Shown piece after piece: positions 43,908 through 63,724 of a stretch of 64,000 nt of DNA. The position numbers were made by a program, and so were the translations under genes. The notes under the pieces were generated by a model. It was not told the DNA's origin and made no database searches. It saw nothing but the letters and a program-made list of their open reading frames with translations. Location of the stretch: NCBI GenBank assembly GCA_964642305.1, contig CAZXOE010000002.1:50300-114299 (forward strand), given 5' to 3'. This DNA is from an uncultured Candidatus Saccharibacteria bacterium (GTDB taxonomy: Bacteria; Patescibacteriota; Minisyncoccia; Phycocordibacterales; UBA1550). How positions within the stretch are numbered: position 1 is the first letter of the stretch; every line of letters starts with the position of its first letter.

Positions 43908-44051
43908 AAAATCAATGAGCGAAGCGAATATGATTTTCTTATCCGCCTAAGTTTTCGAATTAACAAATTCGTGGCTCTGCCATAAACTTTTATTTGAAAA
44001 ATTTTGGTGGGTGGGGAGGTCCAGTCTAGCCATATCAATTAAAAACAAACT

Positions 44052-46708: not shown

Positions 46709-49018
46709 TTACACATCAGTCGCGCCCCCCGCCTTCTCAATCACCTCGCGCGCCTTCGCTCCATCCCCTGGCCCAATGACACCTCGCTCCTCAAGCATAT
46801 CAATTAGTCGAGCGGCGCGCGCGTAGCCCACCTTGAGGCGTCTTTGGAGATACGAAGTAGACGCTTTTCCTGCCTCAATAATTATCGCGCGCGCATCCTC
46901 ATACAAGTCATCATCATCGTTGCCATCACCCTCCTCCTCAAATGACGAGCTAAATATAGAATCACGTTCGTTGCTAATGCTTCCGGACGACAAATTTATT
47001 TCATCTGTGTCTGGCAGACCGTCGGTCGGCATATTAGCCAAATACTTTACAACTGTCTTCACCTCTGTTTCCGACATAAAGGCCGACTGAATACGGGTGG
47101 GCTTGGACATTTCACCAGATATATAGAGCATATCACCAGCACCAAGAAGCTTCTCAGCTCCAGATGCGTCCAAAATAGTACGAGAGTCAATTTGTGATGA
47201 CACTTGCAGAGCCACACGCGCAGGTACGTTTGCCTTGATGAGGCCCGTGATGACATTCACAGACGGACGTTGTGTTGAGAGAATGAGGTGAATACCCACC
47301 GCGCGACTCATTTGCGCTAGGCGCACAATAGCGCTTTCAAGCTCACGAGGGTATGCCTGCATAATATCCGCAAGTTCGTCCAGGATGATGACAATATAAG
47401 GCATACGCTCCGGCATTCCTGCGTCTGCGCTCCCACCCAGTTCTTCCTTTTCCCCTCGTGCACCCTTGTTCTTCTCGTTCTTCTTGAGCGCAACTTCAAG
47501 CACGTTTTTATGATACGAAGAAATGTCACGCACAGACTCCGCTTCAAGTACATTATAACGGCGGTCCATTTCTTTTGCCGCCCACTTAAGCGCGAGAATT
47601 GCTTTTTTCGCGTCTGTAATTACTGGTGTAAGCAAATGGGGGATTTTGTTGTAGAGAGTAAGTTCAACACGCTTTGGGTCTATCATAATAAAACGCATCG
47701 CTTCCGGTCCATTTCTAAAAAGTAAAGAGTTTACAACTGCATGAATTGTTACAGATTTTCCAGAACCAGTCGCGCCGGCGATTAGCACGTGAGGCATTTT
47801 TGCCAGGTCCGCATAGTAGAGCTTCCCAGAAACACCACGTCCGAGTGCCACAAGAAGAGGCTTTGCAGAATTACGATATTCGTCCGAAGAAAAGAGTGTC
47901 TTGAGACCAACAACAGTTTTTGTGGAGTTTGGTACTTCAATGCCCACGAGCGACTGCCCTGGGATAGGCGCTTCTATACGAATAGGGTGAGCAGCGAGCG
48001 CGTACGAGAGCTCGTTTTGAAGTCCAACGATGCGCGCGAGCTTCACACCTTCTGCTGGTTTCAACGCGTAGCGTGTGACAGACGGCCCGATAGAAACCTC
48101 GTCCATTTCAACAGTGATACCGTACTGCGCGAGTGTTCGTTTTATGATGTTTGCATTTGCTTTAATGTCTCCGACACCTGGCTTGCCACGGTCTCCTTCA
48201 AGTATCGAAAGCGGTGGGGGAACATATGTTGTGTTCATCACTTGGTTCATTGAAATACCCGACTCGTCTGCTGGCGTGATATCCTTTTTGATCTTTGCGA
48301 TGACCTGAGCTATCTTCGCAGGCTTTTCTTCTTCCTCAGTTTCTTCTTTTTTTACTTCATCATTATTTGTTTGTATCGCTACTTCCTCGTCAACGTATTC
48401 ATCCTCACCATCTTTCTTTCTCCAGAAAAGCAGAGTGCTAAAATCTGGCTTCGCATTAAACATCACAAGGAATGATATAGAAAGAAATGCAATTAGAAAT
48501 AATGTCGCTATATAAGTATCAAAAAGTTTAACAAGCGGAGAAGAAACAATTTGCCCTAGTATTCCTCCAGACATATCTCCTGAAAATATATTCACAAGAC
48601 CAAGCATAGAAAAAAGAAAAAGAAACGCGCCTATGCTCGCGGTAACAGCAATATTCGGTCGTGACTCGCGGAAAAAAGAAATACCAAGAAGAAATAGTAG
48701 GAGAGGGAGAGCAAAGTATCCGACACCCAAAAGATATTCAAATCCGTTGTAGACTTTTCCACCAAGTAACCCCGCATAGCCCCAAGGAGCGACAGAGAAA
48801 AAGATTCCAACTACAAAAAATAAAATCGCTATTACACTATGGCGTATCTCGTCAGAAAGTCCACCAAGGAAAGAGATACCTCTAAACAAAGAAGCTCCTT
48901 CATTAGAACCTTTGATTATTTTTTTAGGAACCTTTTCGTCATTCTTTCTACGCCCATTCTTTTCTTTCTTTGCCATATGAGTATTGATATATAGTAACAG
49001 ATAAAAACATTCCTCCAA
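46709..49018 (-). CDS. ftsK: DNA translocase FtsK/SpoIIIE
   Basis: N-terminal TM block, Walker A GATGSGKS, and a C-terminal gamma winged helix (YARAARLIDMLEERGVIG). Confidence 0.85.
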   Translation of the reverse strand: MEECFYLLLYINTHMAKKEKNGRRKNDEKVPKKIIKGSNEGASLFRGISFLGGLSDEIRHSVIAILFFVVGIFFSVAPWGYAGLLGGKVYNGFEYLLGVGYFALPLLLFLLGISFFRESRPNIAVTASIGAFLFLFSMLGLVNIFSGDMSGGILGQIVSSPLVKLFDTYIATLFLIAFLSISFLVMFNAKPDFSTLLFWRKKDGEDEYVDEEVAIQTNNDEVKKEETEEEEKPAKIAQVIAKIKKDITPADESGISMNQVMNTTYVPPPLSILEGDRGKPGVGDIKANANIIKRTLAQYGITVEMDEVSIGPSVTRYALKPAEGVKLARIVGLQNELSYALAAHPIRIEAPIPGQSLVGIEVPNSTKTVVGLKTLFSSDEYRNSAKPLLVALGRGVSGKLYYADLAKMPHVLIAGATGSGKSVTIHAVVNSLLFRNGPEAMRFIMIDPKRVELTLYNKIPHLLTPVITDAKKAILALKWAAKEMDRRYNVLEAESVRDISSYHKNVLEVALKKNEKNKGARGEKEELGGSADAGMPERMPYIVIILDELADIMQAYPRELESAIVRLAQMSRAVGIHLILSTQRPSVNVITGLIKANVPARVALQVSSQIDSRTILDASGAEKLLGAGDMLYISGEMSKPTRIQSAFMSETEVKTVVKYLANMPTDGLPDTDEINLSSGSISNERDSIFSSSFEEEGDGNDDDDLYEDARAIIIEAGKASTSYLQRRLKVGYARAARLIDMLEERGVIGPGDGAKAREVIEKAGGATDV

Positions 49019-60070: not shown

Positions 60071-60169
60071 TGTTGCTTTTGGCTGTTTCTGAGCGATTTA
60101 CATAGGGTAATACTATGTAAATCAGTAAGGCCTTGCTGTTTTTGTTAAAAATGTGGTATAATATATAAA

Positions 60170-60313
60170 TGAACGATGTAGCTAAATCAATAGCAGGTTT
60201 CGTGGCAATTGTACTCGTGGGACTTGCTGGTGTGGCTGTCTCAAATGTAATGAAATTGGGGGACATGAACGCCCTCGTCCTAACGGTTGACAATGTTATA
60301 AACACACGCTAGT
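60170..60313 (+). CDS. possible 47-aa small hydrophobic protein, leaderless
   Basis: TGGTATAAT lies 8 nt before the ATG. Reads MNDVAKSIAGFVAIVLVGLAGVAVSNVM... Confidence 0.25.
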
Positions 60314-60526
60314 ATAGCCCTGAAGCCCGAAGAAGTAGGCTGTTTCAGAGAAATGGAACATAGGACCTGCGGAGGTCGACTCATAGCCTGAAAAGGCTTG
60401 GCTTTGCGACTTAAACAATATGTTTGAGTCGCCGTTTCTTTAAAAAGTGGCGAGCAACCTACTGCTCACAACGGAACACCTTGGTGTTTTGTTGTCAGTC
60501 GTAAGTTGTCAGTCGTAAGTTACATT
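60314..60526 (+). promoter_or_regulatory. long structured 5' UTR of rplJ (candidate L10 leader autoregulatory element)
   Basis: ~210-nt GC-enriched untranslated region ending in a 14-bp tandem direct repeat TTGTCAGTCGTAAG x2 just before the start. Confidence 0.4.
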
Positions 60527-61141
60527 ATGGCAATTACAAAACAAAAGAAAGTAGAACTCGTCGCAACAATGAAGGATCGTCTTGCTGATGCAAAGTCAAT
60601 CGTCTTTGTAAACTTCAAAGCACTTTCAGCAGCTGATACAAAAACGCTTCGTAGGAAGCTCTCAGCAGACAATGTTGGATACTTTGTAACAAAGAAGACT
60701 CTAGCAAAGCGTGTACTCGGCGACCTCAAAGCGAAAGGCGAGATGCCCGAGCTTCCAGGGGAACTTGCGATAGCATACGGAGAGGATCTCCTTGCTCCAG
60801 CACGCGAGACATATGCATTCCAGACGACTTCACGCGACAAGGGTTCAATCTCAATTATGGGAGGAATCTTTGACGGAGAGTACAAAACAAAGGAGGAAAT
60901 GATGGCAATTGCTATGATTCCACCGCTACAGGTACTCCGTGGAATGTTCGTAAACATCATCAATTCACCAATTCAGCGTTTCGCTATTGCGATGGGAGAA
61001 ATCGCCAATTCTAAAGGCGTGGCACCGGTAGTAAAAGTAGCAGAGGTGGTGCCAGCCCCAGTAGCAGAAGTAGCCGAGGTGGCCACTGAGGCGCCCGCAG
61101 AGGTAGCAGCAGAAGAGGTAAAGGAGGAAGCAAGTGCTTAA
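60527..61141 (+). CDS. rplJ: 50S ribosomal protein L10
   Basis: Canonical L10 N-terminus ([11 protein letters not shown]....S.VF..F.....) with an acidic/Ala-Val-rich C-terminal tail. Confidence 0.85.
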
Positions 61142-61164
61142 TTAATTTTTTAATCAATATTACT

Positions 61165-61554
61165 ATGACAGAAAACAAAGATGTGGTAGTTCCTGCAAAG
61201 TTCAAGGACTTGGTAGAAAAGATCGAGACAATGACTGTTCTCGATCTTCACGAGCTTGTAAAGGTGCTCGAGGAGAAGTTCGGTGTTTCAGCAACTGCAG
61301 CAGCAGCCGCTCCAGCAGCAGCAGCCGCAGGCGCAGAGGAGAAGGATTCATTCAACGTAGAACTTTCAGCTTCAGGCGACACAAAAATCGCCGTTATCAA
61401 GGTTGTAAAGGAAGTTCTTGCTCTTGGTTTGAAGGAGGCAAAGGACCTTGTAGACGCAGCGCCTTCAATGCTAAAGGAAGGCATGAAGAAGGCAGACGCA
61501 GACGAGTTCAAGAAGAAATTGGAGGAAGCAGGCGCAAAGGTAACTTTGAAGTAA
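61165..61554 (+). CDS. rplL: 50S ribosomal protein L7/L12
   Basis: Ala-rich hinge and a C-terminal ...[22 protein letters not shown]... Confidence 0.9.
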
Positions 61555-61558
61555 TCGC

Positions 61559-61620
61559 ATTGCACTCCAAAAGAAAAACCCAAGGAAACTCCTTGGGTTT
61601 TTCTTTTGGAGTGCAATATT
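61559..61620 (+). terminator. strong intrinsic terminator after rplL (26-bp stem)
   Basis: ttgcactccaaaagaaaaacccaagga-aa-ctccttgggtttttcttttggagtgcaa. Confidence 0.7.
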
Positions 61621-61883
61621 CAAAGTTACCTTTGCGCCTGCGGCGAGTGGTGTCAGGAGAACACCTGTTCTCCTGTGGAGGAGAGCAGTGAGCTTGTACT
61701 CAAGCGAGCGTTGAGAGAGTGGGTGAGAAGCGAGCGTGCGGAGCTTCGCAAGGCCGGACTGAGCGAAGGCGAAGGAGGCGGGGTAGCGCAATTCGCCAGC
61801 AGGCGAATATGTGTGACCTCAAGGAGGAGTACTCTCCGACGGCTGGTGCAAAGGTTACTCTCAAGTAACCCGCAGTAAATGCT
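61621..61883 (+). ncRNA. candidate structured non-coding RNA (class unassigned)
   Basis: GC- and purine-rich island with no protein-like ORF. 5' AGUUACCUUUGCGCCUGCGGCGAG pairs with 3' CUCCGACGGCUGGUGCAAAGGUUAC. Several internal hairpins. Bracketed by two terminators. Confidence 0.35.
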
Positions 61884-61928
61884 AAAAAAAAGGGGTGTGG
61901 CCTTACGGCCACACCCCTTTTTTTTCCT
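61884..61928 (+). terminator. intrinsic terminator
   Basis: AAAAAAAA-aggggtgtggcc-ttac-ggccacacccct-TTTTTTTT. Confidence 0.75.
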
Positions 61929-61958
61929 TTGTATCTATAAAATGTTATACTACCCCTC

Positions 61959-62597
61959 ATGGACACTCTCGGAAAATTATTTGGAAGCCAGGCGCGTGTA
62001 AAGATTTTGCGCTTGTTTCTACTAAACTCACAGGATGCATACGATGTGCCAATGGTTGCGGAAAAGAGCAAAGTTTCAGTGGCAGAGGCGAGGCGCGAAC
62101 TCACACTACTCAAGGCTGCTGGGGTAATATCCAATAAGTCTTTCACAAAAGAAATATTTTCAAAAAAGAAAGATGCAAAACCGAAGAAAAAAAGAGTTCA
62201 AGGTTTTCAGCTTAAAACAACCTTCCCGCTACTGGCATCTCTTAAAGGTTTGATTGTTTCTGAGACCCCTCTGAACAGAGATGAAATAGCAAGGCGATTT
62301 AAAGGCGTTGGAAAAATCAAATTTCTAGCCATTTCCGGCATTTTTATTGACGAGCCTGAGGCGCGCGTGGACGTGCTAATAGTTGGCGACGACCTCAAAA
62401 AACGCTCTATTGAGAACGTTTTACGCACAATTGAGGCAGAAATAGGTCATGAACTCTCCTACGGAGCCCTAGAAACCTCTGAATTCCTTTACCGCGTGAG
62501 TGTGTACGATAAATTTGTGCGAGATGTGCTTGATGGCCGTCACGATACTGTCATAGACCGAATAGGGGCGGAGGAGGTAAAGCCAGTCATATTGTAG
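61959..62597 (+). CDS. hypothetical protein, N-terminal winged-helix-like
   Basis: RVKILRLFLLNSQDAYDVPMVAEKSKVSVAEARRELTLL is HTH-like. The rest is unassigned. Confidence 0.35.
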   Translation: MDTLGKLFGSQARVKILRLFLLNSQDAYDVPMVAEKSKVSVAEARRELTLLKAAGVISNKSFTKEIFSKKKDAKPKKKRVQGFQLKTTFPLLASLKGLIVSETPLNRDEIARRFKGVGKIKFLAISGIFIDEPEARVDVLIVGDDLKKRSIENVLRTIEAEIGHELSYGALETSEFLYRVSVYDKFVRDVLDGRHDTVIDRIGAEEVKPVIL

Positions 62598-62759: not shown

Positions 62760-63452
62760 ATGCCTATTATTTCAGATTGGGGAGTACAGTTGAGTAGCGC
62801 GTTTACTGGCATCGGTATAGAGGTGTTACAGTTTCTTCCAAAGCTTCTCCTCGCAATCATTATCTTTATTGCAGGATGGGTTGTTGGTTCAGTTTTATCT
62901 GACGTTGTTTCAAAAATTATTAAGGCAATCAAGGTTGATTCAGTCCTTGAGAGCGCGGGAGCTCGCGGTCTTCTAGACAAAGCAGGTTTTAATTTGAACA
63001 CTGGCGCATTCCTAGGAGGATTGGTTAAGTGGTTCATCATCATCGTCTTCCTTGTTACAGCACTTGATATTTTGAAGCTTCAGGCTGTTAACGCATTTTT
63101 GACGAATGTTGTCCTCGGTTACATTCCACAGGTTATTGTTGCAACCTTGATTTTGGTTGTTGCGGCAGTTCTCGCTGATCTCGCTCAGAAAGTTTTGGCA
63201 GGTGGCGCTCGCGCTCTTGATTCAAAGCATGCAGGGATGGTTGGTGGTGTAGCTCGTTGGGCAATCTGGATTGTTGCAATTCTTGCGGCATTGAACCAGC
63301 TCGGAATTGCTGGTGGAATGATGCAGACACTCTTCACAGGACTTGTAGCAATGCTTGCTATCGCAGGTGGTCTTGCATTTGGTCTTGGTGGCAAAGAAGC
63401 AGCAGCAAATTACATCGAGAAGCTCCGTGGAGATATCTCGAATCGTCGCTAG
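62760..63452 (+). CDS. membrane protein with duplicated 'conserved TM helix' repeats (MscS-associated type)
   Basis: Two ~100-aa internal repeats (..LAIIIFIAGWVVGSVLSDVVSKIIKAIKVD.. / ..LILVVAAVLADLAQKVLAGGARAL..). Confidence 0.45.
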   Translation: MPIISDWGVQLSSAFTGIGIEVLQFLPKLLLAIIIFIAGWVVGSVLSDVVSKIIKAIKVDSVLESAGARGLLDKAGFNLNTGAFLGGLVKWFIIIVFLVTALDILKLQAVNAFLTNVVLGYIPQVIVATLILVVAAVLADLAQKVLAGGARALDSKHAGMVGGVARWAIWIVAILAALNQLGIAGGMMQTLFTGLVAMLAIAGGLAFGLGGKEAAANYIEKLRGDISNRR

Positions 63453-63591: not shown

Positions 63592-63619
63592 TTGACATAG
63601 CTTTTCTTTTGTATATAAT
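63592..63619 (+). promoter_or_regulatory. consensus sigma70-type promoter (TTGACA-16-TATAAT)
   Basis: ttgaca at 63592-63597 and tataat at 63614-63619. Confidence 0.55.
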
Positions 63620-63625
63620 GGCTGG

Positions 63626-63724
63626 ATTGTTGCATATGAGTATCGGAACCAAATATACCCCCGGCGGGACTAGATAGGAACCATTACGGCTTCTATTTTA
63701 CCCGCGTTATCGCGGGTTTTTTTA
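63626..63724 (+). ncRNA. candidate small RNA / leader (promoter-to-terminator unit ~100 nt)
   Basis: Begins ~7 nt after the -10 box and ends at acccgcg-ttat-cgcgggt+TTTTTTT. Contains only a 12-codon ORF (MSIGTKYTPGGTR). Confidence 0.3.

What the first reader, a model, noticed from the sequence alone, without database searches (positions are those of the whole stretch)
61621..61883. GC-rich, purine-rich structured island between two strong terminators downstream of rplL: candidate ncRNA
The ~265 nt are markedly more GC-rich than the surroundings and have no protein-like frame. The 5' end (AGUUACCUUUGCGCCUGCGGCGAG) can pair with the 3' end (CUCCGACGGCUGGUGCAAAGGUUAC) over ~16 bp, giving a long closing helix. 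Internal hairpins include caggagaaca/tgttctcctg, ctcc-tgtgga-ggag and ggag-tact-ctcc. The region is preceded by the rplL terminator and followed by its own terminator. The size and closing helix are compatible with 6S RNA, a large (Bacillus-type) SRP RNA or a reduced RNase P RNA. I could not find the diagnostic motifs of any of these: no GGAAAGUCCGG/ACAGAACCCGG, no GGAAGCAGC domain-IV signature, no tmRNA tag frame.
Basis: partly seen in the sequence, partly recalled or inferred. Interest (0 to 1): 0.55.

Follow-up and report, generated by a model that had tools for sequence, protein, structure and literature searches.

The report
Hairpin-rich repeat element behind rplL
The GC-rich island after the ribosomal-protein gene rplL is not a 6S, SRP or RNase P RNA gene but a lone, worn copy of a roughly 200-base hairpin-forming repeat element that occurs in dozens of near-identical copies in related ultra-small (CPR/Parcubacteria) bacteria and matches no Rfam family.

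Summary
The raw observation holds. Window 61642-61841 is GC- and G-rich, shows no codon periodicity, and folds better than shuffles. The interpretation does not hold. No Rfam family matches. The "closing helix" comes from three copies of the last codons of rplL: A (61528-61554), an exact inverted copy A' (61619-61641) and a diverged direct copy A'' (61842-61868).

Relatives (Yonathbacteria-like Parcubacteria) carry a homologous element at the same site, either full, truncated or duplicated. Others lack it, and one has a gene there instead.

A metagenome scan with the conserved core found 68 loci. At least 30 are distinct insertion sites of a near-identical ~205-nt repeat, at least partly in a Candidatus Taylorbacteria genome. 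Several rarer subfamilies share the core but have different terminal hairpins. Two core hairpins show compensatory changes.

The island is most likely a fossil or domesticated copy of a non-autonomous, MITE/PATE-like structured repeat that landed at the rplL stop codon. In this genome it carries a ~100-nt insert and sits behind an extra terminator hairpin. Whether the strongly conserved core serves the host or only the element is unresolved. So is the origin of the rplL-end copies.

The parts
61165..61554 (+). rplL (L7/L12) coding sequence. Its last 23-27 nt double as the 5' arm of the element's left terminal hairpin.
   Evidence: 129-aa ORF. Pfam Ribosomal_L12_N and Ribosomal_L12 on the identical protein.
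61528..61554 (+). Repeat A: the last 8 codons of rplL (AGAKVTLK) plus the stop codon.
   Evidence: Inverted repeat I2 and direct repeat D4 both start at 61528.
61559..61617 (+). Perfect 28-bp hairpin with a 3-nt loop and a terminator-like core (CCCAAGGA aac TCCTTGGG TTTTT). It sits in the loop between A and A'. No relative has it at this position.
   Evidence: I1. Comparison with L087, L091, L104 and L103, where A' follows the stop codon directly or within 15 nt.
61619..61641 (+). Repeat A': exact reverse complement of 61528-61550, forming the 3' arm of the left terminal hairpin.
   Evidence: I2, 23/23. MFE of -87.6 kcal/mol for 61519-61655. Analogous hairpins occur in every element-bearing relative but not in the element-free L100 and L085.
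61642..61653 (+). Purine-rich linker, homologous to the family's GAAAGGGGTC.
   Evidence: Alignment A2. Model R2, built without rplL-linked members and without the search pattern, hits 61640-61677.
61654..61675 (+). Hairpin H1 (10 bp, 2-nt loop).
   Evidence: I12. Three pairs are swapped with compensation relative to the family consensus.
61676..61693 (+). Invariant core motif TGGAGGAGAGCAGTGAGC. It is single-stranded and Shine-Dalgarno-like.
   Evidence: Identical in the window, L104 and L091, while four-fold sites of the flanking genes are only 57-60% identical. It is also present in all family members, but there by ascertainment.
61692..61710 (+). Variable small hairpin H2 (GCTTG tact CAAGC) followed by the conserved GCGAGCG.
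   Evidence: The length of this segment differs by 2, 5 and 7 nt between lineages, which breaks any reading frame.
61711..61717 (+). 5' arm of hairpin H3 (TTGAGAG).
   Evidence: Alignment A2 and pair counts. Coordinates.
61718..61816 (+). Lineage-specific insert of about 99 nt inside H3, GC- and G-rich, with its own hairpins. It contains the module GGTGAGAAGCGA..GGAGCTTCGCAAG (61722-61752).
   Evidence: Absent from L104, L091 and all other members. The module recurs only inside H1 of L163. Fold.
61817..61822 (+). 3' arm of hairpin H3 (CCTCAA).
   Evidence: The five outer pairs are kept.
61823..61841 (+). Lower part of the right terminal region: hairpin GGAGG agtac TCTCC, then CCGACGG. It is homologous to the CGCTCGCCGAACG region of the high-copy element.
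   Evidence: Alignments. Fold.
61842..61868 (+). Repeat A'': a diverged direct copy of A (22 of 27 nt) that still reads AGAKVTLK plus a stop.
   Evidence: D4, I4. The five differences from A are all synonymous.
61884..61925 (+). Ancestral intrinsic terminator of the rplJL operon (19-bp stem plus T8).
   Evidence: Homologous terminators directly precede the p212 promoter in L100, L103 and L104, with or without the element.

Best explanation
The island is one diverged copy of an uncatalogued family of about 200-nt, hairpin-rich, non-coding repeat elements of Parcubacteria.

**Family architecture.**
- A left terminal hairpin.
- A purine-rich linker (GAAAGGGGTC).
- Hairpin H1.
- An almost invariant single-stranded core (GTGGAGGAGAGCAGTGAGC .. 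GCGAGCG).
- Hairpin H3.
- A right terminal hairpin that often looks like an intrinsic terminator.

**Evidence of mobility elsewhere.** In at least one Candidatus Taylorbacteria genome the element sits at 30 or more different sites with sharp ends. Most sites lie just behind the stop codon or 3' end of a gene. This is how a non-autonomous (MITE/PATE-like) mobile element behaves (shown).

**History at this locus (inferred).** In the Yonathbacteria-like lineage of the window, one copy landed at the rplL stop codon and was inherited. Some lineages later truncated, duplicated or lost it.

**State of the window copy.** Its left terminal hairpin is formed by the last codons of rplL and their complement A'. 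Its right terminal hairpin contains a second copy of those codons, A''. Hairpin H3 has acquired an insert of about 100 nt. A strong extra terminator hairpin separates the element from rplL.

**Likely function (inferred).** The island is transcribed, if at all, only by read-through as a 3'-UTR passenger. Its "structure" is the set of element hairpins, folded on the + strand as RNA or as single-stranded DNA. Its only probable cellular effect is on termination or 3'-end stability of the rplJL mRNA.
For: **Homology at the same site in relatives.** A', H1, the core motif, H3 and A'' all occur in L104 and in L091-L099. L087 has a truncated copy. L100 has none, and L085 has a DUF7931 gene instead.

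**Multi-copy family.**
- The pattern GAGGAGAGCAGTGAGC N0-20 GCGAGCG hit 68 metagenome loci.
- 44 of those instances, at 30 unique flank pairs, are a near-identical ~205-nt element with constant ends (left flank TTAAT/TTAAG, right end GGAGTTTAC). Two copies occur on single contigs.
- The sites are mostly intergenic, often at the stop of a co-oriented ORF.
- One host is identified as Candidatus Taylorbacteria, from a GltX protein 100% identical.

**Subfamilies.** Other subfamilies share the core but have different terminal hairpins. These are homologous between the two ends of one element; L156, for example, has a 50-nt direct repeat.

**Structure.**
- 94% of cells pair in H1 and H3, against 36-60% when partners are slid.
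- 6 pairs show double changes, reached by 0 of 500 shuffles.
- G-U pairs place the fold on the + strand.
- The high-copy element folds at z = -7.8.

**Covariance models.**
- R1 finds the window copy at 61.7 bits, though the window was in its training set. It also finds the untrained truncated L087 copy (34.5 bits) and a second tandem copy in L091 (19 bits).
- R2 was built only from non-rplL members and only from the 38 nt outside the search pattern. It ranks 61640-61677 first in the whole window (21 bits, E about 0.008).

**Non-coding.** There is no codon periodicity, and indels between lineages break any reading frame.

**Catalogues.** No Rfam family matches either the island or the full-length element.
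Against: - **No copy number in this genome.** Only one copy lies in the 64-kb window. In Yonathbacteria-like contigs only the rplL-linked copy matched, so mobility is shown only in other Parcubacteria.
- **Mobile-element hallmarks are missing.** No transposase partner, no target-site duplication and no clear terminal inverted repeats were found. The kind of mobile element is therefore not established.
- **The conservation pattern is inverted.** The core is far more conserved than the termini, the opposite of ordinary MITEs. Within the rplL-linked lineage it is far more conserved than four-fold sites (20 and 14 nt identical runs against 57% identity). H1 has fully compensated changes. All this points to selection on the core, which a dead passenger would not show.
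- **A simple insertion does not explain the rplL-end copies.** They are exact for A'. A'' differs from A only synonymously, and differences among the A'' copies of different lineages fall mostly on third codon positions.
Confidence: 0.6

Rival explanations
1. A domesticated cis-acting RNA element of the rplJL operon. The element, of whatever origin, is kept because its structured 3' UTR has a role. The hairpin sequesters the last rplL codons and stop codon. The GGAGG-rich core, H1 and H3 could control mRNA 3'-end processing or stability, termination, or ribosome release or recycling at the end of rplL.
For: - The core motif is invariant, and H1 and H3 are maintained by compensatory changes, among lineages whose four-fold sites are only 57-60% identical.
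- A' tracks the lineage's own rplL allele in every relative, giving hairpins of -26 to -34 kcal/mol. Element-free relatives have no such hairpin.
- The copy appears single and syntenic in this clade.
Against: - It is dispensable. It is absent in L100, replaced by a gene in L085 (the closest relative by p212, 97%) and reduced to one third in L087.
- In the window a strong terminator hairpin now lies between rplL and the element, which should cut it off from most transcripts.
- The same core occurs behind dozens of unrelated genes in Taylorbacteria.
Confidence: 0.22
2. The remnant of an integrative cassette that targets the 3' end of rplL. Under this view a circular element carrying an rplL-end-like hairpin recombined with the rplL terminal hairpin, in a Campbell-type, att- or attC-like event. 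That would leave hybrid direct repeats (A and A'') on both sides. Repeated events would give tandem arrays.
For: - Direct repeats of the target gene's last 27-36 nt flank the element: window D4, and a 36-nt repeat with 32/36 identity in L104.
- L091 has three rplL-end copies separating two element copies.
- Differences between copies lie mostly at synonymous or third codon positions, as expected if each copy was once a real rplL end.
- The site is a hot spot: a DUF7931 gene in L085 and a mid-rplL recombination breakpoint.
Against: - No integrase or recombinase gene lies at the locus in any relative.
- The high-copy subfamily inserts at many unrelated sites with constant ends and without duplicating its targets.
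- Palindromic hairpins make direct and inverted repeats hard to tell apart. Similarity between the two ends is a general feature of the family.
Confidence: 0.1
3. An independent trans-acting small RNA gene of a new class. It would be transcribed from its own promoter between the two terminators.
For: It is flanked by two terminator-like hairpins, has a stable fold (z = -4.6) and a conserved purine-rich single-stranded segment that could act as a seed.
Against: - The scan found no promoter-like site in 61100-62100.
- In relatives the element starts directly at the rplL stop codon, with no room for a promoter.
- It belongs to a multi-copy repeat family.
- A much better sRNA-gene candidate with a perfect promoter lies 1.7 kb downstream.
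Confidence: 0.05
4. A housekeeping RNA (6S, large SRP RNA, reduced RNase P RNA or tmRNA).
For: Only the size (about 250 nt) and an apparent closing helix (I4).
Against: - Rfam gave no hit at gathering level, and no sub-threshold hit to any of these families at E up to 10.
- The closing helix is made of rplL-end repeats and is not conserved in relatives.
- The element is absent from close relatives.
- It is multi-copy in other genomes.
Confidence: 0.01
5. A degraded protein-coding remnant: a partial duplicate of rplL, or a small ORF ending in AGAKVTLK.
For: - A'' keeps the reading frame AGAKVTLK plus stop, with only synonymous differences from rplL.
- ORFs of 49 and 90 aa exist.
- In L104 a GGAGGAG-GTG start could give a 28-aa peptide ending in VGAKVTLK (reading).
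Against: - There is no codon periodicity and no Pfam hit.
- Similarity to rplL stops exactly at the 27-nt repeat.
- Segment lengths differ by 2, 5 and 7 nt between lineages, and the putative small ORFs are not conserved: 8 codons in the window, 6 in L091, 28 in L104.
Confidence: 0.02

Closest known systems
Prokaryotic MITEs and structured intergenic repeats (e.g. Coxiella QMITE, Neisseria Correia, enterobacterial ERIC; reviewed in PMC10969869 and PMC3184786)
   Same: - Under 500 nt with no ORF.
- Many near-identical copies in one genome.
- Intergenic sites, often at gene ends.
- Transcripts predicted to form very stable stem-loops.
- Nested insertion of one element into another (L111, L116 and L171).
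   Different: - No target-site duplication and no clear terminal inverted repeats were seen in 30 sites.
- It is GC-rich, not AT-rich.
- The interior core is the most conserved part and the termini the most variable, the reverse of ordinary MITEs.
- No parent IS is known.
Pneumococcal BOX and SPRITE elements (modular repeats and Rho-independent-terminator-like repeats; PMC10969869, and my own knowledge of Croucher et al. 2011)
   Same: - Modular build, with optional modules inserted in H1 or H3.
- A terminator-like 3' hairpin flanked by A- and U-runs in several subfamilies.
- Location behind genes.
   Different: There is no sequence relationship. The phylum is different. No mobilising enzyme is known for either, so the comparison is only architectural.
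IS200/IS605-derived non-autonomous elements (PATEs) and their omega/reRNA regions (PMC10055086, PMC3119063)
   Same: - Similar imperfect hairpins near both ends, on the same strand.
- No inverted terminal repeats and no target duplication.
- Oriented insertion next to a short constant flank motif (TTAAT/TTAAG), like a TAM, with a constant element-end motif (TTTAC), like a TEM.
- A conserved structured region of about 150 nt ending at the right end, which is the size of a TnpB guide-RNA scaffold.
   Different: - No TnpA or TnpB was found.
- None of the 68 pattern hits has a gene between the left end and the core.
- The terminal hairpins (about 50 nt with 4x4 internal loops) are larger than classical IS608-type hairpins.
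- Membership is untested.
REP/BIME (REPIN) elements mobilised by RAYT transposases (own knowledge: Nunvar 2010; Bertels and Rainey 2011; also PMC3184786)
   Same: - GC-rich extragenic palindromes at 3' ends of genes.
- They occur in clusters or tandem arrays and are co-transcribed.
- They can stabilise upstream mRNA.
   Different: REPs are 20-40 nt units with a conserved GTAG head. This element is a ~200-nt composite with a non-palindromic conserved core.
Integrative elements that duplicate the 3' end of their target gene (att sites in tRNA, tmRNA or protein genes; own knowledge)
   Same: The rplL-linked copy is bracketed by direct repeats of the target gene's last 27-36 nt. The gene stays intact.
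   Different: The insert is only about 290 nt, with no recombinase. The repeats are hairpins that also serve as the element's two terminal hairpins.

Membership tests
6S RNA, bacterial SRP RNA (small and large), RNase P RNA (types A and B), tmRNA (Rfam) | Covariance-model score at or above the family's gathering threshold. | tested here: not met
   No gathering-level hit in the whole window. These families are absent even at E up to 10 in 61400-62100.
6S RNA, SRP RNA, RNase P RNA | Single-copy housekeeping gene present in all close relatives. | tested here: not met
   Absent from L100 and L085, and truncated in L087. Multi-copy in Taylorbacteria contigs.
Parcubacteria hairpin-rich repeat family (defined here) | Core motif GTGGAGGAGAGCAGTGAGC .. 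GCGAGCG in the same order and spacing. | tested here: met
   Window 61675-61710. The motif was taken from the window, L104 and L091 before the scan, so its presence in the window is not circular.
Parcubacteria hairpin-rich repeat family (defined here) | Linker plus hairpin H1 immediately 5' of the core. | tested here: met
   Model R2 was built without rplL-linked members and without the pattern columns. It ranks 61640-61677 first in the window (21 bits, E about 0.008, rough).
Parcubacteria hairpin-rich repeat family (defined here) | Hairpin H3 (TTGAGAACC/GGTTCTCAA) 3' of GCGAGCG. | tested here: met
   The five outer pairs are kept (61711-61715 with 61818-61822). The inner part is replaced by a ~99-nt insert.
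Parcubacteria hairpin-rich repeat family (defined here) | Mutually similar terminal hairpins at both ends. | tested here: met
   A:A' on the left and the A'' hairpin on the right. The same relation holds in L156, L117 and L148.
MITE (PMC10969869: under 500 bp, TIRs of 4-30 bp, flanking direct repeats, AT-rich, intergenic, stable stem-loop transcripts, no transposase) | Size under 500 bp, no ORF, intergenic, stable stem-loops, multiple copies. | tested here: met
   About 205 nt at 30 unique sites, mostly intergenic. z = -7.8. The window genome itself shows one copy only.
MITE | Terminal inverted repeats. | tested here: inconclusive
   The ends are similar hairpins, and because they are palindromic they read as either direct or inverted repeats. 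Similarity of the extreme termini is only about 60% by eye.
MITE | Target-site duplication. | tested here: not met
   The 30 high-copy sites show no duplication beyond a constant TTAAT/TTAAG left flank. The rplL-linked copies instead have 27-36-nt repeats of the gene end.
MITE | AT-rich composition. | tested here: not met
   The element is 55-58% GC and the window island 58-64%.
IS200/IS605-derived PATE | Subterminal hairpins at both ends on one strand, no TIR or TSD, and a constant transposon-adjacent motif. | tested here: met
   G-T wobble pairs show strand-specific folding.
IS200/IS605-derived PATE | A cognate TnpA (Y1 HUH transposase), or a TnpB with the same ends, in the same genome. | not tested
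   No hit had a gene between the left end and the core. The ORFs of the loci were not scanned against Pfam, and complete host genomes were not available.
Integrative element with att duplication of a gene's 3' end | Direct repeats of the target gene's end flanking the insert. | tested here: met
   D4, 27 nt at 81% identity. L104 has 36 nt at 32/36.
Integrative element with att duplication of a gene's 3' end | A recombinase gene within or next to the insert. | tested here: not met
   No ORF with coding signal lies between rplL and p212. The called genes in the relatives' loci show no recombinase.

The most novel reading that the evidence does not exclude
The nearly invariant core (GAAAGGGGUC-H1-GUGGAGGAGAGCAGUGAGC..GCGAGCG-H3) could be a functional RNA of a new class. 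It might be a guide-RNA-like scaffold, a ribozyme, or a protein-binding module carried by a new type of hairpin-ended mobile element. In that case the terminal hairpins could be rebuilt from, or matched to, the 3' end of the gene the element sits behind, here rplL. The element would then preserve the gene's C-terminus while leaving a second copy of it.
Probability: 0.15. Interest if true: 0.75.

Novelty: new member of a known kind. Interest (0 to 1): 0.42.

Why it matters
CPR/Patescibacteria genomes are small and are usually considered poor in repeats and in known regulatory RNAs. This finding has four consequences.

- **A new repeat family.** A 200-nt structured repeat with 30 or more near-identical copies in one Taylorbacteria genome would be a new family for annotation pipelines. 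It also has a conserved single copy behind rplL in another lineage. It matches no Rfam family, and my limited literature searches found no description.
- **A warning for ncRNA screens.** GC-rich islands flanked by terminators can be repeat fossils rather than RNA genes.
- **An unusual conservation pattern.** The core is invariant and the termini variable. The left terminal hairpin is built from the coding end of an essential ribosomal gene. This makes the family a reasonable place to look for a new transposition or RNA-based mechanism.
- **Population context.** The locus also documents frequent recombination inside rplJ-rplL among co-occurring strains.

Tried and rejected
- **Rfam.** Gathering-level scans of the window and of four loci holding full-length elements gave nothing for the island or the repeat. 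Permissive scans of both gave only hairpin-type chance hits.
- **Coding explanations.** Pfam on five ORFs from both strands found nothing relevant. Codon-position composition is flat.
- **Other copies nearby.** BLAST of the island against the window and against 80 GTDB rplL loci found no other copy. The only matches were short ones of the A/A'' repeats to real rplL ends.
- **A second model hit.** R1's hit at 47959-48029 lies inside a 769-aa ORF and is chance.
- **Viral contigs.** The core pattern gave 0 hits.
- **Upstream ORFs in other subfamilies.** I tested whether their left hairpins also overlap the 3' end of an upstream ORF. No consistent pattern emerged.
- **Unpaired element ends.** I searched the 568 kb of loci for ends that would betray an autonomous copy. 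None was found.
- **Pfam scan of locus ORFs.** I considered scanning all 316 ORF clusters of the loci for transposases, but the tool's summary output cannot report singletons, so I did not run it.
- **Literature.** Searches for MITEs or repeats in CPR, Patescibacteria or Parcubacteria found nothing relevant.
- **Other ideas rejected from the sequence alone.**
  - DGR template/variable repeats: the differences are not adenine-specific.
  - Translational bypass or read-through to A'': a stop codon follows immediately.
  - Hammerhead or HDV-like ribozyme motifs: the core sequences are absent and Rfam is negative.
  - Group I or II intron: Rfam is negative, and the size and ends are wrong.
Full report
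**Context**

The window comes from a CPR/Patescibacteria (Parcubacteria) genome. The local gene order is a 47-aa ORF, rplJ (60506-61141), rplL (61165-61554), a 212-aa HTH-like protein "p212" (61959-62597), and an MS-channel-like protein "p230" (62760-63452). Identical DNA occurs in several ENA and Logan assemblies. The closest relatives by p212 are an uncultured MAG (97%), Parcubacteria GW2011_GWA1_44_13 (93%), and several Candidatus Yonathbacteria (81-86%).

**Observation check**

- **Composition.** The island is GC-rich: 58-64% in 100-nt windows across 61650-61850, against about 36-50% for most neighbours. It is G-rich: 61642-61841 has about 39% G.
- **Coding signal.** G stays at 0.38-0.41 at all three codon positions in every frame, whereas rplJ, rplL, p212 and p230 show the usual strong periodicity. 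Mechanical ORFs of 90 and 49 aa exist but have no Pfam match.
- **Structure.** The + strand of 61619-61868 folds at -107 kcal/mol (z = -4.6, 0 of 200 shuffles as good). The - strand is less exceptional (z = -3.0).
- **Terminators.** The downstream terminator 61884-61925 is clear. The upstream one is a perfect 28-bp hairpin, 61559-61617.

**What the closing helix really is**

The 23 nt at 61619-61641 (A') are the exact reverse complement of the last 23 nt of the rplL reading frame (A, 61528-61550). The 27 nt at 61842-61868 (A'') are a direct copy of the last eight rplL codons plus the stop codon, identical at 22 of 27 positions (I2, D4).

The five differences between A and A'' are all synonymous, so A'' still reads AGAKVTLK-stop.

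In the full transcript context the MFE pairs A' with A instead. Together with the 28-bp hairpin this gives a 51-bp interrupted duplex (-87.6 kcal/mol) that buries the end of rplL and its stop codon.

**Known RNA families**

Rfam 15 gave no gathering-level hit anywhere in the window. A permissive scan of 61400-62100 gave only hairpin-like chance matches, such as miRNA precursors on the two terminator hairpins. 6S, SRP, RNase P and tmRNA are therefore not supported.

**Relatives at the same locus**

Among 80 GTDB loci with an rplL relative, the rplL-p212-p230 synteny is common. The rplL-p212 spacer is usually 17-170 nt, against 405 nt in the window. Closer relatives were fetched through p212 homologues:

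| Relative | p212 identity | State of the rplL-p212 spacer |
|---|---|---|
| L104 | 81% | 232-nt spacer: rplL end, then A', G-rich linker, hairpin GGGGAAC/GTTCCCC, GTGGAGGAGAGCAGTGAGC, GCGAGCG, hairpin TTGAGAACC/GGTTCTCAA, small hairpin, CCGACGG, an A'' copy, then the terminator |
| L091-L099 | 85-86% | The same, followed by a second degenerate copy and a third rplL-end-like repeat |
| L087 | 93% | Only A', the linker, the first hairpin and GTGGAGGAGAGCA, then a terminator |
| L103 | 83% | A, A' and A'' around a different GC-rich interior |
| L100 | 81% | Nothing but a terminator |
| L085 | 97% | A 199-aa DUF7931 gene instead |

The ancestral terminator (GGGG..GGCC hairpin) is shared by the window, L100, L103 and L104. 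The island is thus a homologous but dispensable and variable insert between the rplL stop and the ancestral terminator.

In every element-bearing lineage A' complements that lineage's own rplL allele, giving hairpins of -26 to -34 kcal/mol. The element-free L100 and L085 have no such hairpin (-4.3 and -8.5).

**The repeat family**

I scanned the JGI metagenome collection with the core shared by the window, L104 and L091 (GAGGAGAGCAGTGAGC N0-20 GCGAGCG). The scan returned 68 loci.

- **rplL-linked or chance.** Five loci are rplL-linked (L091 and L104 types). Two are chance hits in GC-rich coding DNA.
- **High-copy element.** Of the remaining instances, 44, at 30 unique flank pairs, are a near-identical ~205-nt element with constant ends:
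  - The left flank ends in TTAAT or TTAAG, and the element ends in GGAGTTTAC.
  - The flanks are otherwise unrelated.
  - Single contigs sometimes hold two copies.
- **Insertion context.** These copies are mostly intergenic. About two thirds follow a co-oriented ORF, several with the stop codon at or inside the element's first bases.
- **Host.** A glutamyl-tRNA synthetase on a two-copy contig is 100% identical to one from Candidatus Taylorbacteria RIFCSPHIGHO2_02_49.
- **Other subfamilies.** L107, L117/L106, L118/L146, L148, L125/L135, L119/L152, L127/L163 and L156 keep the same interior but have different terminal hairpins.
  - Within one element the two terminal hairpins are homologous; in L156 they form a 50-nt direct repeat.
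  - In several subfamilies the right hairpin is flanked by AAAATAAAA and TTTTATTTT, like a bidirectional terminator.
- **Nesting.** L111, L116 and L171 carry a second, unrelated small element nested in H3.
- **Catalogues and fold.** Rfam has no family for the full-length element. It folds into four separate hairpins joined by purine-rich single strands (z = -7.8).

**Is the window island really a member?**

- **Alignment.** A2 aligns the window, L104, L091 and 13 non-rplL members. It shows the same order of linker, H1, core, GCGAGCG and H3.
- **Pair counts.** On H1 and H3, 94% of cells pair, against 36-60% when the partners are slid. Six pairs have changes on both sides (0 of 500 shuffles reach this). 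The G-U pairs make sense only on the + strand.
- **Window H1.** It differs from the consensus by three fully compensated pairs.
- **Window H3.** It keeps its five outer pairs and holds a ~99-nt insert (61718-61816). A 31-nt module of that insert recurs only inside H1 of L163.
- **Circularity.** The core motif was the search key, so its invariance among the non-rplL members is ascertained. I therefore built model R2 only from non-rplL members and only from the 38 nt upstream of the key. Its best hit in the whole 64-kb window is 61640-61677, exactly abutting the core (21 bits, rough E 0.008).
- **Model R1.** It also recovers the untrained truncated L087 copy (34.5 bits) and the second tandem copy of L091 (19 bits). 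It finds nothing in the rplL loci of more distant CPR lineages (L005-L040, L084) and no second copy in the window.

**Interpretation**

The island is best explained as a single, old, rplL-linked copy of a non-autonomous, structured repeat element.

- **Shown.** Homology to the family. The multi-copy, sharp-ended, flank-independent distribution in other Parcubacteria. Hairpins maintained by compensation. Non-coding character. Presence/absence polymorphism at the rplL site.
- **Inferred.** The family is mobile DNA. The copy entered at the rplL stop codon in a common ancestor of the Yonathbacteria-like lineages. In the window it is now mostly a passenger of read-through transcripts, because the 61559-61617 hairpin, which no relative has at that place, precedes it.

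The element class is not fixed. The following features resemble IS200/IS605-derived PATEs (PMC10055086) more than classical TIR-and-TSD MITEs (PMC10969869):
- similar subterminal hairpins on one strand;
- no target duplication;
- a constant flank motif;
- a ~150-nt structured region ending at the right end.

However, no TnpA or TnpB partner was seen, and none of the 68 hits has a gene between the left end and the core.

**What does not fit a dead passenger**

- **Neutral benchmark.** Between the window and L104, L091 and L087, four-fold degenerate sites of the four flanking genes are only 57-60% identical.
- **Core conservation.** The island nevertheless shares runs of 20 and 14 identical nucleotides with L104.
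- **Inverted conservation pattern.** Across subfamilies the interior is far better conserved than the termini, the reverse of ordinary MITEs.

Either the core is needed by the element (for example as an RNA or single-stranded-DNA signal for an unknown enzyme) and the rplL-linked copies are younger than the flanks suggest, or the host retains it. I give the cis-acting domestication rival about 0.2.

**Unexplained: the rplL-end copies**

- A' is an exact complement of the local rplL allele.
- A'' differs from A only at synonymous positions.
- Among the A'' copies of different lineages, most differences fall on third codon positions.
- L104 repeats 36 nt, including 12 nt beyond the stop codon.
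- L091 has three such copies separating two element copies.

Possible sources are gene conversion between the two terminal hairpins and the coding copy, att-like recombination at the rplL terminal hairpin, or template switching at the palindrome. The population is clearly recombining here. The window and L085 are identical over 60526-61343 and then drop to 86%. The last 48 nt of rplL are identical to L087 and L100 although the rest differs by about 10%.

**Comparison with what is known**

The island works like REP/BIME, Correia, ERIC, BOX or SPRITE-type structured repeats that sit behind genes and are co-transcribed. It meets the size, copy-number, location and stability criteria of MITEs. It fails the TSD and AT-richness criteria, and the TIR criterion is ambiguous. 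It is not a member of any Rfam family. Limited literature searches found no description of such repeats in CPR bacteria, which is not proof that none exists.

**Verdict**

- **The finding.** Its proposed identity is wrong, and its hallmark helix is a repeat artefact.
- **What it is.** The feature is a new family member of a known kind of thing, a structured intergenic repeat. It has some unusual properties.
- **Caveats.**
  - Copy number in the source genome beyond this 64-kb window is unknown.
  - Metagenome assemblies can be chimeric at repeats; L166 combines the flanks of L133 and L109.
  - E-values from the short calibrations are rough.
  - No expression data were available.

Noticed in passing
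window 63592-63722: A better small-RNA gene candidate than the island.
- It has a perfect TTGACA-N16-TATAAT promoter (63592-63619, 12/12).
- It would give a non-coding transcript of about 95 nt ending in a terminator (63700-63717 plus a T-run).
- It is 89% identical to L091-type relatives, whose four-fold sites are about 59% identical.
- The 5' part GGCTGGATTGTTGCATATGAG is invariant in six lineages, and the hairpin before the terminator changes with compensation.
- It has no Rfam hit.
   Followed up: partly
window 60526-61343 versus L085 (GCA_964534835.1 CAZHQE010000009): The two are 100% identical over 818 nt (all of rplJ and the first 180 nt of rplL). Identity then drops to 86% for the rest of rplL, 92% in p212 and 85% in the upstream 47-aa ORF. 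This is a recent homologous-recombination tract ending in the Ala-rich linker of rplL. The last 48 nt of rplL are instead identical to L087 and L100.
   Followed up: partly
L085:1824-2423: The closest relative by p212 (97%) has a 199-aa gene with Pfam DUF7931 between rplL and p212, exactly where the window has the island. It has its own terminators and no rplL-end repeats.
   Followed up: no
L111, L116, L171 (inside hairpin H3 of the repeat): A second, unrelated miniature element of about 100 nt is nested in the repeat, in either orientation. Its terminal inverted repeats are GGGACTGTTGCCGAAT..ATTCGGCAACAGTCCC. The same end sequence also abuts the repeat in L128 and L155.
   Followed up: no
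window 43916-43945; L103:2348; L032:3388; window 61785-61800: The short motif TGAGCGAAG(G)CGAA recurs in intergenic hairpin loops of several Parcubacteria, including behind rplL in distant relatives. It contains GCGAAGC, known as a very stable mini-hairpin.
   Followed up: no
window 60169-60312: A 47-aa hydrophobic ORF upstream of rplJ is called as a gene at the same place in all relatives fetched. The roughly 200-nt rplJ leader behind it has no Rfam L10_leader hit.
   Followed up: no
L119:6206-10288: The 23S rRNA gene of a repeat-bearing Parcubacteria contig spans 4083 nt against a 2925-position model. It therefore carries large insertions, as is typical of CPR. The repeat lies about 3.8 kb upstream of it.
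   Followed up: no
L006:3390-3564, L022:3375-3619, L025:3351-3489: More distant relatives also have long extended palindromes around the rplL terminator. In L022 and L025 the last rplL codons pair with the sequence just after the stop codon, without the repeat core.
   Followed up: no
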